From Escherichia phage KKE7M, in sequence record PQ356295.1: DNA of 64,000 bases; one strand, written 5' to 3'. The notes under the pieces were generated by a model. The model made no database searches. It was given only the letters and a program-made list of their open reading frames with translations, and was not told where the DNA came from. Position 1 is the stretch's first letter. Every line of letters starts with the position of its first letter. Shown piece after piece: positions 16,473-18,557 of this stretch. The position numbers and the translations under genes are program-made.

Positions 16473-18557
16473 TTATCTTCCTCTGATACTGTATGGAGAA
16501 GATAAAGAGTTTCTTGATCTTCCACCCATCTTACCGTACCCTGTTAATGCATTTGTTGCAGAAGGTATTGCTACTGCTTTAAACATCTGTTCTTTTGACA
16601 AAGTATTAAAGCAAGATGCAGCAGCATCTGGAATATCATCTTTTAATGTTGCTGTAGATCTTTCTCCATTAAATGACTCCATCTCTTTATAGAAATGATC
16701 AAGAGTTTCTTTGTTAGGGAAAGATTCTTCTACAATATAAACAAAACCATTTTGACAAGCACTACTAAATGGCATAAAGCGTTGTAATTTTTTCTTGTTA
16801 CCAGGCATAGCATCTGGTTTAACAACAAACCCTTCAGCAATTAGTTTTTTAGCTGATTCTGTGTATTCAATCAAACCAGCACCAGAAGGATCTTTTGGCA
16901 ATACAACTGTAACTTCATCTCCATCAATCTTACATTGGTTTAGAATTAAATTATCTCTGTCACCTGGCAGTCTTCTGAATCTACCAAAAATCTTACTACC
17001 TTCATCGTGAGCATCATAATCATAATCACCAAAAATGTAATAGTTTCCATCAGAGTCTTTAGCCATTTTAACAGATGTTGTGTAGTCAGGATAACGATAA
17101 GATTCTGTTGGAACCGATACTGCTTTATCCCACGCTCGCATATATTTAAGATTGTTTGGTAAATCTTTAAACTTGATAACGTGTAACCATTCTCTGTTAA
17201 AGAAACTCTCTTCTTGTGCACGAGCAAACCAACAACCATCTAAAAGCTGTGCTCTCTTAACGGCGGTTTGAGCCTTCAAAGAAGCTAAGTATTTAGGGTT
17301 AAGTCTTATTAGTTCAGGGTTATCAAAGATAGTACCACCAATGAACACAAATGTTTGTGGTTCAATAACCACTGTTTCACCTGTGTTTGGGTTTTGCATA
17401 AAACAGTTTTCAGGATACTTTTCTTTCAACTCTTCTGCTGTTTCAGCAAATACTGGTTCATCTTGCACAATAAGAAAGTATAGCTGTTTGCCACACATAT
17501 CTTCTCGTGGATAACCAGCTTCATCTAAATACGGAAGTACCCATTTCAACACCCAACTATCTGCATCAGGGTTACAAGTACACAGCATAAAAGATGTTTC
17601 TGATTCAGAACGCATACGCCCTAACAGATACAGCATTTCATATTGTGTAAAATGTGTAAGTTCGTCAAACCCTACCATCGAATACTGTGTACCTTGATGG
17701 TTAGTTTCAGCAGTTACGTTATCATTTTCAAGATGGTCAAATTTAAGTGTACCACCTTTTGTGGCTCTGAACTCCATCTCCATAGCCTGTTCTCTTACGT
17801 GAGGCTTCAATGGTAGATAAAGTTTTTTAGCTTCAGTAAACAAACCACCAGATTTACGTAAAGCTGTTGTATTTTTACGGAAAAGAATACCACCAAACAG
17901 TGGATCTTTATACGCGTATTTAAGTGCCTTTAGAAGTAGCAGACGGCTTTTGCCGCTATTCCCAGTAACGAAGATGTGATCGCCACGTCTAAACACGACA
18001 TAACTGCTTGGAGTTTCAAAGCAATATTTCTTATCATCACTTGTCATTACCTCATGAATTTTTAGATATGTGCTAGGTTTACCTTGAATGTTAAACGGAA
18101 CACGTTTACCAAAAGGATTTTCAATATATCCTCGTAATGGGTGTCCTGCTTGCTGTAGTGCAATAAGATCCCCAACAAGAATTTCAAAATGTTTTTTGGA
18201 TTTTTTCTTCTTGTAGAAAACAAAGCGATGTTCCATACTTAATTCTTGGAAGACACCTACTCCGTTTGTGATACAATACAGATTATCTTTAGCATCATAT
18301 TCTACAAAAGATGGTGTAACTAATTCAAGACGTTTATTTCTTGGATTGTATTGATAAATATCCTCACCATCATATTCACTTATTTGTTTCCAACCGTCTC
18401 TTGTTAAGTATTCTGTTTCTGCTGAAACACAACCTGCCGCACCACCATAAATCATTACTTCAGGCATAAGATCCATAGCTAGTGTTTGTTTGCCAGGTTG
18501 GGCTTTAACTTCAATATCTACATTTTCAAAAGATTGTTTGACAGGTTTCCTTGCCAC
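16473..18557 (-). CDS. terL: terminase large subunit, interrupted by a mini-intein
   Basis: Walker A reconstituted as GGAAG-SGKS when residues 43-200 are removed; Walker B MVGFDELTHF; CTCNP motif. Confidence 0.8.
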   Translation of the reverse strand: MARKPVKQSFENVDIEVKAQPGKQTLAMDLMPEVMIYGGAAGCVSAETEYLTRDGWKQISEYDGEDIYQYNPRNKRLELVTPSFVEYDAKDNLYCITNGVGVFQELSMEHRFVFYKKKKSKKHFEILVGDLIALQQAGHPLRGYIENPFGKRVPFNIQGKPSTYLKIHEVMTSDDKKYCFETPSSYVVFRRGDHIFVTGNSGKSRLLLLKALKYAYKDPLFGGILFRKNTTALRKSGGLFTEAKKLYLPLKPHVREQAMEMEFRATKGGTLKFDHLENDNVTAETNHQGTQYSMVGFDELTHFTQYEMLYLLGRMRSESETSFMLCTCNPDADSWVLKWVLPYLDEAGYPREDMCGKQLYFLIVQDEPVFAETAEELKEKYPENCFMQNPNTGETVVIEPQTFVFIGGTIFDNPELIRLNPKYLASLKAQTAVKRAQLLDGCWFARAQEESFFNREWLHVIKFKDLPNNLKYMRAWDKAVSVPTESYRYPDYTTSVKMAKDSDGNYYIFGDYDYDAHDEGSKIFGRFRRLPGDRDNLILNQCKIDGDEVTVVLPKDPSGAGLIEYTESAKKLIAEGFVVKPDAMPGNKKKLQRFMPFSSACQNGFVYIVEESFPNKETLDHFYKEMESFNGERSTATLKDDIPDAAASCFNTLSKEQMFKAVAIPSATNALTGYGKMGGRSRNSLSSPYSIRGR
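17958..18431 (-). other. mini-intein (Hint domain, about 158 aa, no homing endonuclease domain) inside terL P-loop
   Basis: starts with Cys (CVSAETEYL...), ends ...HIFVTGN followed by Ser; flanks rejoin into a canonical P-loop. Confidence 0.6.

What the first reader, a model, noticed from the sequence alone, without database searches (positions are those of the whole stretch)
17958..18431. Mini-intein splitting the Walker A motif of the large terminase
Removing residues 43-200 joins ...IYGGAAG to SGKSRLLL..., giving a canonical GxxxxGKS P-loop. The insert begins with Cys, ends with Asn before a Ser, has a TxxH-like block (SMEH), and is too short to contain a homing endonuclease. Packaging would depend on protein splicing.
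Basis: seen in the sequence. Interest (0 to 1): 0.6.

Follow-up and report, generated by a model that had tools for sequence, protein, structure and literature searches.

The report
Mini-intein in phage terminase P-loop
The DNA-packaging motor gene of this phi92-like E. coli phage is interrupted, inside its ATP-binding loop, by a small self-splicing protein element (a mini-intein); inteins at this kind of site are well known, but this one goes unannotated in more than 130 sequenced phage genomes and has an unusual active site.

Summary
Window 17958-18431 (minus strand) encodes residues 43-200 of the large terminase (TerL, window 16473-18557, = phi92 gp119). Removing them gives IYGGAAG|SGKS, the sequence that 72 insert-free homologues carry.

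- The active site is atypical: Cys also at block F position 4, Thr-Gly-Asn instead of His-Asn, and no Pfam or NCBIfam intein hit.
- It matches the AceL NrdHF class 3 intein except that Cys1 is kept. Whether it splices by the class 1 or class 3 route cannot be told from sequence.

It belongs to a large phage intein group with this signature. Verdict: a real intein and a new member of a known kind. Splicing itself is inferred, not shown.

The parts
16473..18557 (-). terL precursor gene (694 aa, 79.2 kDa; GTG start preceded by GGAGGAG), the large terminase subunit and host gene of the intein
   Evidence: ORF listing. Pfam Terminase_6N 61.7 bits against a cut-off of 22. 99.9% identical to phi92 gp119 and to the TerL of 55 phage records. 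Masses.
18432..18557 (-). N-extein, residues 1-42, ending ...MIYGGAAG (first half of the Walker A motif)
17958..18431 (-). Mini-intein, residues 43-200 of the precursor (158 aa, 18.5 kDa), from Cys1 to Asn158
18429..18431 (-). Codon of intein Cys1 (block A). Invariant; candidate first nucleophile.
   Evidence: 176 of 181 family domains
18225..18236 (-). Block B: S65-M-E-H68, followed by R69 and F70. His68 is invariant; Ser or Thr at position 65.
   Evidence: Same residue numbers as S65/H68/R69 of the AceL NrdHF intein.
18021..18023 (-). Codon of intein Cys137 (block F position 4), 21 residues before the terminal Asn. This is the position of the class 3 branch-point cysteine.
   Evidence: 178 of 181 domains. 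Spacing compared with class 3 inteins.
17958..17966 (-). Block G end: T156-G157-N158. The terminal Asn is preceded by Gly instead of the usual His.
16473..17957 (-). C-extein, residues 201-694, starting S201-G-K-S (second half of the Walker A motif). Ser201 is the +1 nucleophile. The rest is the remaining ATPase domain and the nuclease domain.

Best explanation
Window 17958-18431 (minus strand) encodes a 158-residue cis-splicing mini-intein inside the Walker A loop of the large terminase of a phi92-like coliphage (Justusliebigvirus). TerL is translated as a 79-kDa precursor whose ATP-binding loop is split (GAAG / SGKS). The Hint domain folds, removes itself and joins Gly42 to Ser201. The products are a 60.8-kDa TerL with an intact GxxxxGKS P-loop and a free 18.5-kDa intein.

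Shown here:
- the insert and its exact boundaries;
- the empty site in homologues;
- the Hint fold;
- invariance of Cys1, His68 (block B), Cys137 (block F position 4), Asn158 and Ser+1;
- strong purifying selection;
- vertical inheritance across the subfamily Stephanstirmvirinae.

Inferred:
- that splicing happens, and that packaging needs it;
- the chemistry. Either Cys1 (class 1 route) or Cys137 (class 3 route, as proven for the closest characterised relative, AceL NrdHF) attacks the Gly42-Cys43 peptide bond. The N-extein then moves to Ser201, Asn158 cyclises to release the intein, and an O-to-N shift makes the peptide bond. Arg69 probably stands in for the missing penultimate His, as it does in AceL NrdHF.

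The element has no endonuclease, so it is no longer mobile by itself and persists because imprecise loss would destroy an essential gene.
For: Boundaries and restored P-loop.

Empty site and same-site inserts:
- 72 of 120 TerL homologues have the uninterrupted GGAAGSGKS. 37 have an insert at the same bond, of 146, 158/159, 246, 301 or 323-328 aa.
- A syntenic ~150-kb phage contig (terL, portal, protease, capsid) has the empty site.

Family relationships:
- Invariant columns in 27 inserts: C1, G13, W14, H68, D132, K135, Y136, C137, G157, N158, S+1.
- A profile of the inserts hits the AceL NrdHF intein (PDB 6zgq) at E = 8.7e-12. Most of the weaker hits are also inteins: PolII, TFIIB, RecA, DnaB, BIL.

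Fold:
- AF2 model pLDDT 85.3, pTM 0.79.
- Foldseek top 50 are all inteins, Hint or BIL domains, with 6zgq first.

Active-site match: AceL NrdHF has S65, H68, R69, C124, T144, G145, N146 and S+1, and splices efficiently by the class 3 route. The phi92 intein has S65, H68, R69, C137, T156, G157, N158 and S+1.

Selection and inheritance:
- dN/dS is 0.052 for the intein against 0.068 for the extein, window versus phage anhysbys, with synonymous sites near saturation.
- Intein identity tracks extein identity in the lineage.
- The intein is present in 133 Stephanstirmvirinae records, all of them isolated, viable phages.

Large relatives: the N-terminal 76 aa (E = 1e-12) and C-terminal 34 aa (E = 2e-6) are homologous to the mini form. 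Between them lie LAGLIDADG-like motifs (LQVAVMADG, EVxxWDG; weak PF14528 hits).

Precedent: TerL P-loop inteins splice in mycobacteriophages (PMC5050341), and an AceL TerL split intein is known.
Against: - No Pfam or NCBIfam intein or Hint model matches the insert, even at E <= 1.
- A single-sequence search of PDB sequences finds no intein. Recognition needs a family profile or a structure model.
- The penultimate His and the block F position 13 His, which usually assist Asn cyclisation, are absent.
- No experimental evidence of a spliced product is available to me, and the original phi92 genome paper could not be read.
- The structure is a prediction. I could not extract coordinates to check that Cys1, His68, Cys137, Thr156 and Asn158 sit together.
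Confidence: 0.93

Rival explanations
1. The segment is an ordinary, permanently retained inserted domain of TerL (for example an 'N-terminal endonuclease domain', as some GenBank annotators wrote) and is not removed.
For: Two phage records name the protein 'large terminase with endonuclease' or 'potential large terminase with N-terminal endonuclease domain'. No curated intein model matches the insert.
Against: - The insert lies between the fourth and fifth residues of GxxxxGK[ST], so a retained 158-aa domain would break the phosphate-binding loop of an essential ATPase.
- The fold is Hint, not a nuclease.
- The invariant residues are exactly the splicing residues at the two ends plus the block B His.
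- Homologues of 52-64% identity function without it.
Confidence: 0.02
2. It is a decayed or cleavage-only Hint element (like a bacterial intein-like domain) that cuts but does not ligate, or that no longer works. Packaging would then rely on two TerL fragments or on another protein.
For: The penultimate His is missing, and BIL domains are among the good structural matches.
Against: - The +1 nucleophile (Ser) that BIL domains lack is invariant here.
- dN/dS of 0.05 shows the domain is maintained, not decaying.
- The N-extein is only 42 residues and carries half of the P-loop, so cleavage without ligation would not rebuild the ATPase.
- The closest relative, with the same Thr-Gly-Asn|Ser end, splices nearly to completion with barely detectable cleavage.
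- No second terL was seen in the window. The profile search for further inteins found only this ORF.
Confidence: 0.03
3. Mechanistic sub-question, alternative A. It is a standard class 1 intein: Cys1 makes the linear thioester. Cys137 merely replaces the usual block F Asp as a helper residue.
For: - Cys1 is present in 176 of 181 diverged family domains. Typical class 3 inteins have lost the position-1 nucleophile.
- Block B position 12 is Phe, Val, Met or Ile as in class 1, not Trp.
Against: - Cys at block F position 4 is just as invariant (178 of 181), and Thr or Ser at block G position 5 is present in 169 of 181.
- These are the class 3 hallmarks.
- In the nearest characterised relative that cysteine is the essential nucleophile.
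Confidence: 0.45
4. Mechanistic sub-question, alternative B. It splices by the class 3 route, or by a two-thiol relay: Cys137 forms a branched thioester with the N-extein before transfer to Ser201. Cys1 is dispensable, is an upstream relay partner, or is a redox partner of Cys137.
For: - Its closest sequence and structure relative is the class 3 AceL NrdHF intein, with the same S65/H68/R69, Cys at F:4, and T-G-N|S.
- Cys137 lies 21 residues before the terminal Asn, as in proven class 3 inteins, where the gap is 20-22.
- The +1 residue is Ser, as in nearly all class 3 inteins.
- At least one family member has a non-nucleophilic residue at position 1 but keeps Cys at F:4: P0174 has Pro.
- From memory, unverified here: Tori and Perler 2011 reported WCT inteins with Ser1 or Cys1 that still use the class 3 route.
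Against: - Near-universal retention of Cys1 argues that it is used.
- The Trp of the WCT triplet is absent.
- Hoffmann et al. define class 3 as lacking Cys at position 1.
- Canonical WCT class 3 inteins (Msm and Mch DnaB) are not especially close by profile or by fold.
Confidence: 0.5

Closest known systems
AceL NrdHF intein (naturally split, atypical class 3 intein from an Antarctic phage-like contig; PDB 6zgq; Hoffmann et al. 2020, PMC7891396)
   Same: - Same catalytic layout: Ser65, His68, Arg69, a hydrophobic non-Trp residue at block B position 12 (Met against Phe), Cys at block F position 4, Thr-Gly-Asn at the C-terminus, Ser at +1, and neither of the two usual assisting histidines.
- Similar size: 146 against 158 aa.
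   Different: - AceL NrdHF has Ala at position 1, whereas this intein has an invariant Cys1.
- AceL NrdHF is split into two genes with a GIY-YIG endonuclease between them and sits in a ribonucleotide reductase. This one is contiguous and sits in TerL.
- Overall identity is only about 20%.
Mycobacteriophage TerL inteins (Kelley et al. 2016, PMC5050341) and the AceL TerL split intein
   Same: They are inteins in the ATPase domain of phage large terminases. The commonest sites are in the Walker A P-loop. They have been shown to splice, and splicing is argued to be needed for the active site and for pentamer assembly. The AceL TerL intein is mentioned.
   Different: - Different terminase family and different bond. 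In mycobacteriophage TerL1, site a lies between the Lys and Thr of GKT, and site b is one residue away. Their Terminase_6-type TerL has its intein in the C-motif. Here the host is a Terminase_6N-type TerL and the bond is GAAG|SGKS, two residues before the Lys.
- Different hosts: coliphages of Stephanstirmvirinae, and also a member of Vequintavirinae and Vibrio phages.
- I made no sequence comparison with those inteins.
Canonical class 3 (WCT) inteins, e.g. MP-Be DnaB, Msm and Mch DnaB-1 (PMC2807308, PMC7664689)
   Same: Cys at block F position 4, Thr at block G position 5 and Ser/Thr at +1. They are phage-associated and prefer the P-loops of helicases and terminases.
   Different: - This intein has Cys1, Phe instead of Trp at block B position 12, and Gly instead of His before the terminal Asn.
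Full-length LAGLIDADG inteins at the same TerL site (metagenomic TerLs P0023, P0025, P0038, P0063; 323-328 aa) and the 241-aa version in Escherichia phage Av-05
   Same: Same insertion bond, and the same N- and C-terminal splicing halves: 39% identity over 76 aa and 44% over 34 aa.
   Different: They carry a central domain of about 170 aa with LAGLIDADG-like motifs (sub-threshold PF14528 hits). The phi92 version lacks that domain. Its central 50 residues show no significant similarity to it.

Membership tests
Intein (protein-splicing Hint domain) | In-frame insertion within a conserved host-protein motif that is contiguous in homologues | tested here: met
   72 insert-free homologues read GGAAGSGKS, and 37 have an insert at the same bond. 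The empty site is seen in a syntenic phage contig.
Intein (protein-splicing Hint domain) | Hint fold | tested here: met
   [not shown]
Intein (protein-splicing Hint domain) | N-terminal Cys/Ser/Thr, block B [TS]xxH, C-terminal Asn, and Cys/Ser/Thr at +1 | tested here: met
   C1, S65xxH68, N158 and S+1. All are invariant or nearly so in 27 relatives and 181 wider family domains.
Intein (protein-splicing Hint domain) | Penultimate His (block G position 6). Common but not obligatory. | tested here: not met
   Gly157, and Gly in 176 of 181 family domains. The same holds in the efficiently splicing AceL NrdHF intein, where adding the His abolished activity.
Intein (protein-splicing Hint domain) | Match to curated intein or Hint sequence models (Pfam, NCBIfam) | tested here: not met
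   No family matched at E <= 1 for the insert alone. This probably explains why it is unannotated.
Intein (protein-splicing Hint domain) | Actual excision and extein ligation | not testable with these tools
   Needs protein expression or mass spectrometry. Predicted masses are 79.2 kDa going to 60.8 + 18.5 kDa.
Mini-intein (no homing endonuclease) | Only the splicing domain is present, with no endonuclease domain | tested here: met
   158 aa, of which 138 superpose on the 146-aa AceL NrdHF intein. There is no LAGLIDADG or HNH hit. The central part is not similar to the endonuclease region of large relatives.
Class 3 inteins (WCT) | No Cys/Ser/Thr nucleophile at intein position 1 | tested here: not met
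   Cys1, invariant.
Class 3 inteins (WCT) | Trp at block B position 12 | tested here: not met
   Phe70. The family has Val, Met, Ile, Phe or Leu here, and Trp in only 2 of 181. AceL NrdHF, a proven class 3 intein, also lacks it (Met).
Class 3 inteins (WCT) | Cys at block F position 4 and Thr at block G position 5 | tested here: met
   Cys137 (178 of 181 domains) and Thr156 (Thr or Ser in 169 of 181). The Cys-to-Asn spacing is 21, against 20-22 in proven class 3 inteins. Position assignment rests on spacing and on the alignment, not on coordinates.
Class 3 inteins (WCT) | Block F branched thioester intermediate, with Cys at F:4 essential and position 1 dispensable | not testable with these tools
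   Needs C1A, C137A and S+1A mutants.
Phage large terminase, Terminase_6 type | Terminase_6N ATPase domain with Walker A, plus a C-terminal RNase H-like nuclease domain | tested here: met
   PF03237 scores 61.7 bits (68.6 after removing the intein) against a cut-off of 22. PF17289 scores 20.4-20.7 bits, just under its cut-off of 22.6. The gene lies next to the portal gene as in annotated relatives.
Bacterial intein-like (BIL) domain | Lacks the +1 nucleophile and gives mainly cleavage | tested here: not met
   Ser+1 is invariant in the TerL set.
Group I intron or free-standing homing endonuclease insertion | The interruption is removed at RNA level or splits the ORF | tested here: not met
   The ORF is continuous and in frame. 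Rfam finds only tRNAs in the window. Such an intron does exist elsewhere in the terL of some relatives.

The most novel reading that the evidence does not exclude
The phi92 TerL intein represents a large phage intein group that, as far as my searches reached, has no name. The intein profile matched 3008 cluster representatives at E <= 1e-10. The signature was checked only in the best 148 of them (181 domains): Cys1 and the block F position 4 Cys are both near-invariant, and Thr-Gly-Asn replaces His-Asn. Pfam intein models did not match these inteins in the nine host proteins I scanned.

The group would be the Cys1-retaining sister, or ancestral form, of the AceL NrdHF class 3 intein. Splicing would need both thiols: either a Cys1-to-Cys137-to-Ser+1 acyl relay, or a Cys1-Cys137 disulfide that gates terminase maturation by redox state.

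It would give a natural intermediate between class 1 and class 3 chemistry, in a phage that grows on E. coli K-12.
Probability: 0.25. Interest if true: 0.65.

Novelty: new member of a known kind. Interest (0 to 1): 0.42.

Why it matters
Annotation. More than 130 deposited genomes of phi92-like and phAPEC8-like phages, many of them proposed for therapy, label this gene simply 'terminase large subunit' or 'terminase with endonuclease'. The curated BASEL table lists 0 inteins for a phage whose TerL is 99.9% identical. A 2024 paper that sequenced such a phage states that no coliphage inteins had been reported. That statement is not strictly true, because phage Sciku has a helicase intein. The mature motor protein is 536 aa, not 694.

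Biology. DNA packaging in these phages should depend on a post-translational splicing step, which could be a control point or a vulnerability.

Mechanism. The intein carries both candidate nucleophiles (Cys1 and the block F Cys) and lacks both assisting histidines. Its hosts grow on E. coli K-12, so mutagenesis of Cys1, Cys137, Asn158 and Arg69 could address how class 3 chemistry relates to class 1.

Tools. Its nearest relative is a fast, clean-splicing intein, so this compact cis-splicing version may be useful for protein engineering.

Tried and rejected
- Pfam and NCBIfam scans of the insert alone found nothing, even at E <= 1.
- A single-sequence phmmer search of PDB sequences gave only chance WW-domain-like matches.
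- A profile of the C-terminal 45 residues alone, searched against PDB to align block F and G with 6zgq, gave only spurious matches to clostridial cell-wall-binding repeats ('DGKKYYF'). I discarded these as short-motif chance.
- A search for a second related intein in the window, with the family profile against all six-frame ORFs, found none.
- Recent horizontal acquisition: the intein's GC content matches its surroundings, and its divergence tracks that of the extein. Residence in this lineage is therefore old.
- Literature. I found no paper linking phi92 TerL with an intein. The phi92 genome paper and Tori and Perler 2011 are not held, so prior mention cannot be excluded.
- I could not obtain model coordinates to measure distances between the catalytic residues.
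Full report
**1. What is in the sequence**

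The window comes from an Escherichia phage of the phi92 type (genus Justusliebigvirus, subfamily Stephanstirmvirinae). The 694-codon ORF at 16473..18557 on the minus strand is 99.9% identical to phi92 gp119 and to the large terminase of 55 deposited phages. It starts with GTG behind a GGAGGAG ribosome-binding site. It lies between a spanin pair and the portal gene, as in annotated relatives.

Residues 43-200 map to window 17958..18431 on the minus strand, exactly the coordinates of the finding. The segment starts with Cys (CVSAETEY...), ends ...FVTGN, and is followed by Ser201. Removing it gives ...MIYGGAAG|SGKSRLLLL, that is G-A-A-G-S-G-K-S, a Walker A motif.

Without the segment the Pfam Terminase_6N match extends to profile position 1 and improves from 1e-16 to 8e-19. 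Terminase_3 also rises above its cut-off.

**2. Is it an insertion?**

A search of 5.8 billion proteins returned TerL homologues in several length classes. In the best 120:
- 72 have the uninterrupted P-loop, mostly ...YGGAAGSGKS...;
- 37 have an insert at exactly the same peptide bond, of 146, 158/159, 246, 301 or 323-328 residues;
- every insert starts with Cys and ends [TS]-G-N before Ser.

The closest insert-free TerLs are 64% identical in the extein. One comes from a ~150-kb phage contig with the same gene order (terL, portal, protease, capsid). Its empty site translates to DVMIYGGAAGSGKSRLILLK.

At 52-58% extein identity, insert-bearing and insert-free proteins are intermixed. This is the sporadic distribution expected of a mobile element.

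**3. Is it an intein?**

Curated sequence models fail. Pfam and NCBIfam give no hit for the insert, and a single-sequence search of PDB sequences gives only noise. Three other lines agree that it is an intein.

(a) Conservation. An alignment of 27 inserts has these invariant columns: Cys1, Gly13, Trp14, His68, Asp132, Lys135, Tyr136, Cys137, Gly157, Asn158 and Ser+1. Ser or Thr is nearly invariant at position 65. These are the positions of intein blocks A, B, F and G.

(b) Profile search. A profile of that alignment finds the AceL NrdHF intein (PDB 6zgq) at E = 8.7e-12. Most of the weaker hits are also inteins: PolII, TFIIB, RecA, DnaB and a BIL domain.

(c) Structure.
- The AlphaFold model is confident: pLDDT 85.3, pTM 0.79.
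- The 50 best Foldseek matches in the PDB are all inteins, Hedgehog Hint or BIL domains, headed by 6zgq.

Because 138 of 159 modelled residues superpose on a 146-residue mini-intein, there is no room for an endonuclease. 'Mini-intein' is correct.

The 300-plus-residue relatives share the N-terminal 76 residues (39% identity, E = 1e-12) and the C-terminal 34 residues (44%, E = 2e-6). Between them they carry a domain with LAGLIDADG-like motifs (LQVAVMADG, EVxxWDG) and sub-threshold PF14528 hits. I first thought the middle of the phi92 intein might be a remnant of that domain. BLASTP does not support this.

**4. Is it maintained?**

The intein is present in 133 Stephanstirmvirinae records:
- 55 Justusliebigvirus at 99% identity or more;
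- 77 at 80-90%, largely Phapecoctavirus;
- Klebsiella phage 05F01 at 72%.

Within this lineage its identity tracks that of the extein.

Between the window and Phapecoctavirus anhysbys, synonymous sites are near saturation (pS 0.68). Nonsynonymous divergence is lower in the intein (0.086) than in the extein (0.109). This gives dN/dS of 0.052 against 0.068.

Its GC content equals that of its surroundings. The element is therefore old in this lineage, inherited vertically, and under protein-level constraint as strong as that on the essential terminase. That fits a domain that must fold and splice. It does not fit a spacer or a pseudogene.

These are all isolated, plaque-forming phages, so TerL must work. 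With the P-loop split by 158 residues, that requires removal of the insert. This step is inference.

**5. How it probably works, and what is unusual**

The expected outline is as follows. A 79.2-kDa precursor folds. The N-extein (42 residues) is transferred to Ser201. Asn158 cyclises and releases the 18.5-kDa intein. An O-to-N shift leaves a 60.8-kDa TerL with a native Gly42-Ser201 bond (masses).

The active site is not canonical.
- The residue before the terminal Asn is Gly, not His.
- Block F position 4, 21 residues before the Asn, is Cys rather than the usual Asp.
- Block G position 5 is Thr.

Cys at F:4 plus Thr at G:5 are two-thirds of the 'WCT' signature of class 3 inteins. In those inteins the block F Cys, not residue 1, attacks the N-terminal junction.

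The closest relative, AceL NrdHF, is an experimentally proven but atypical class 3 intein. It has Ser65, His68, Arg69, Met70, Cys124, Thr144, Gly145, Asn146 and Ser+1. It lacks both assisting histidines. Arg69 contacts the C-terminal scissile carbonyl, and introducing the penultimate His abolished activity.

The phi92 intein has Ser65, His68, Arg69, Phe70, Cys137, Thr156, Gly157, Asn158 and Ser+1. The one decisive difference is position 1: Ala in AceL NrdHF, an invariant Cys here.

Sequence alone cannot say which of these applies:
- Cys1 is the nucleophile (class 1);
- Cys137 is the nucleophile (class 3);
- both act in relay;
- the pair forms a regulatory disulfide.

I rate class 1 and class 3-like chemistry as about equally likely.

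**6. The wider family**

Searching 1.84 billion cluster representatives with the intein profile gave 3008 proteins at E <= 1e-10 and 139 at E <= 1e-30. In the 148 best new representatives I found 181 full-length domains. Their conservation is:

| Position | Residue | Count (of 181) |
|---|---|---|
| 1 | Cys | 176 |
| Block B position 10 | His | 181 |
| Block F position 4 | Cys | 178 |
| Block G position 5 | Thr or Ser | 169 |
| Penultimate | Gly | 176 |
| Terminal | Asn | 181 |

- 85% of the domains are 280 residues or longer, so they are large enough to carry an endonuclease domain. Only 7% are mini-inteins.
- About half sit directly before a GK[ST] P-loop.
- At least one member (P0174) has Pro at position 1 while keeping the block F Cys.

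I scanned nine host proteins with Pfam. They include primase-helicases (Toprim plus DnaB_C), PIF1 and RecD/UvrD-like helicases, ribonucleotide reductase, and terminases of two Pfam families. Pfam's intein models did not match these intein domains.

Escherichia phage Av-05 (Vequintavirinae) has a 241-residue version at the same TerL bond. Vibrio phage PWH3a-P1 has a 146-residue one.

**7. Comparison with what is known**

Inteins in phage terminase ATPase domains, including the Walker A loop, are well documented and shown to splice in mycobacteriophages (PMC5050341). A split TerL intein from Ace Lake has been characterised (mentioned in PMC7891396). Class 3 inteins were noted from the start to favour the P-loops of helicases and phage terminases (PMC2807308). 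The kind of element is therefore known.

What seems not to be on record is this intein in phi92-like coliphages.
- GenBank records call the gene 'terminase large subunit', 'hypothetical protein' or 'terminase with (N-terminal) endonuclease (domain)'.
- The BASEL collection table, which counts inteins per genome, lists 0 for phage EmilieFrey, whose TerL is 99.9% identical.
- A 2024 paper that includes a phi92-like isolate says no coliphage inteins had been reported. A helicase intein in coliphage Sciku had in fact been noted.
- My full-text searches found nothing linking phi92 TerL and inteins. However, the 2012 phi92 genome paper and Tori and Perler 2011 are not in the library.

The insertion bond (GAAG|SGKS in a Terminase_6N-type TerL) differs from the mycobacteriophage P-loop sites.

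**8. Verdict**

It is a new member of a known kind. It is moderately interesting for three reasons: an unannotated splicing step in the packaging motor of a much-sequenced group of coliphages, an active site that straddles the class 1/class 3 boundary, and membership of a large group that standard domain models miss. Protein splicing, its necessity for packaging and the chemical route all remain to be shown experimentally.

Noticed in passing
L003 (Salmonella phage UAB_1) 2224-3199; corresponds to window terL nt 1223/1231, about window 17327-17335 (minus strand): Some close relatives (UAB_1, vB_vPM_PD114, and the 'Campylobacter phage' A150, A145, C3 and A110a records) carry a second interruption of terL. 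It is a ~976-bp insert at the IGGTIFDNP motif, with an HNH homing-endonuclease ORF and a group I intron match just under the Rfam threshold (45.8 against 50 bits, E = 3.5e-10). The window's terL lacks it. Those phages therefore have both an intein and an intron in the same gene.
   Followed up: partly
window 20360-23223 (minus strand): A dense tRNA array lies 1.8 kb upstream of terL on the coding strand. ARAGORN finds 15 tRNAs. Rfam reports 14, including one at 22871-22949 that ARAGORN does not list.
   Followed up: no
window 18566-19232 (minus strand): Two overlapping ORFs lie immediately upstream of terL (143 aa and 109 aa). By position they correspond to the genes annotated i-spanin and o-spanin in BASEL phage EmilieFrey. 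I did not compare the sequences. The 109-aa ORF has a lipobox-like LMMTGC near its N-terminus.
   Followed up: no
proteins P0121-P0268; no window coordinates: The intein belongs to a very large group: 3008 cluster representatives at E <= 1e-10. In the 181 domains of the best 148 representatives the signature is near-invariant: C1 ... [ST]xxH ... Y-C-[FV] ... R ... [TS]-G-N | [SCT]. Most are full-length, and some host proteins carry several (up to 6 matched stretches). Nine host proteins scanned with Pfam were primase-helicases, PIF1/RecD/UvrD-like helicases, ribonucleotide reductase and terminases, and the Pfam intein models did not match these inteins.
   Followed up: partly
L004 (Escherichia phage Av-05, Vequintavirinae) 2411-3541: The TerL of Av-05 has a 241-aa intein at the same GAAG|SGKS bond. 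The annotated CDS then stops early (…FDEGRTVCSL*), which suggests a further interruption or a problem with the record.
   Followed up: no
They are probably mislabelled or contaminant genomes.
   Followed up: no
window 18273-18275 (minus strand); intein residue 53: The window's intein has a third cysteine, Cys53 (NLYCITNG). Most phi92-like relatives have Arg there (NLYRITNG), so it is not conserved and probably has no role in splicing.
   Followed up: no
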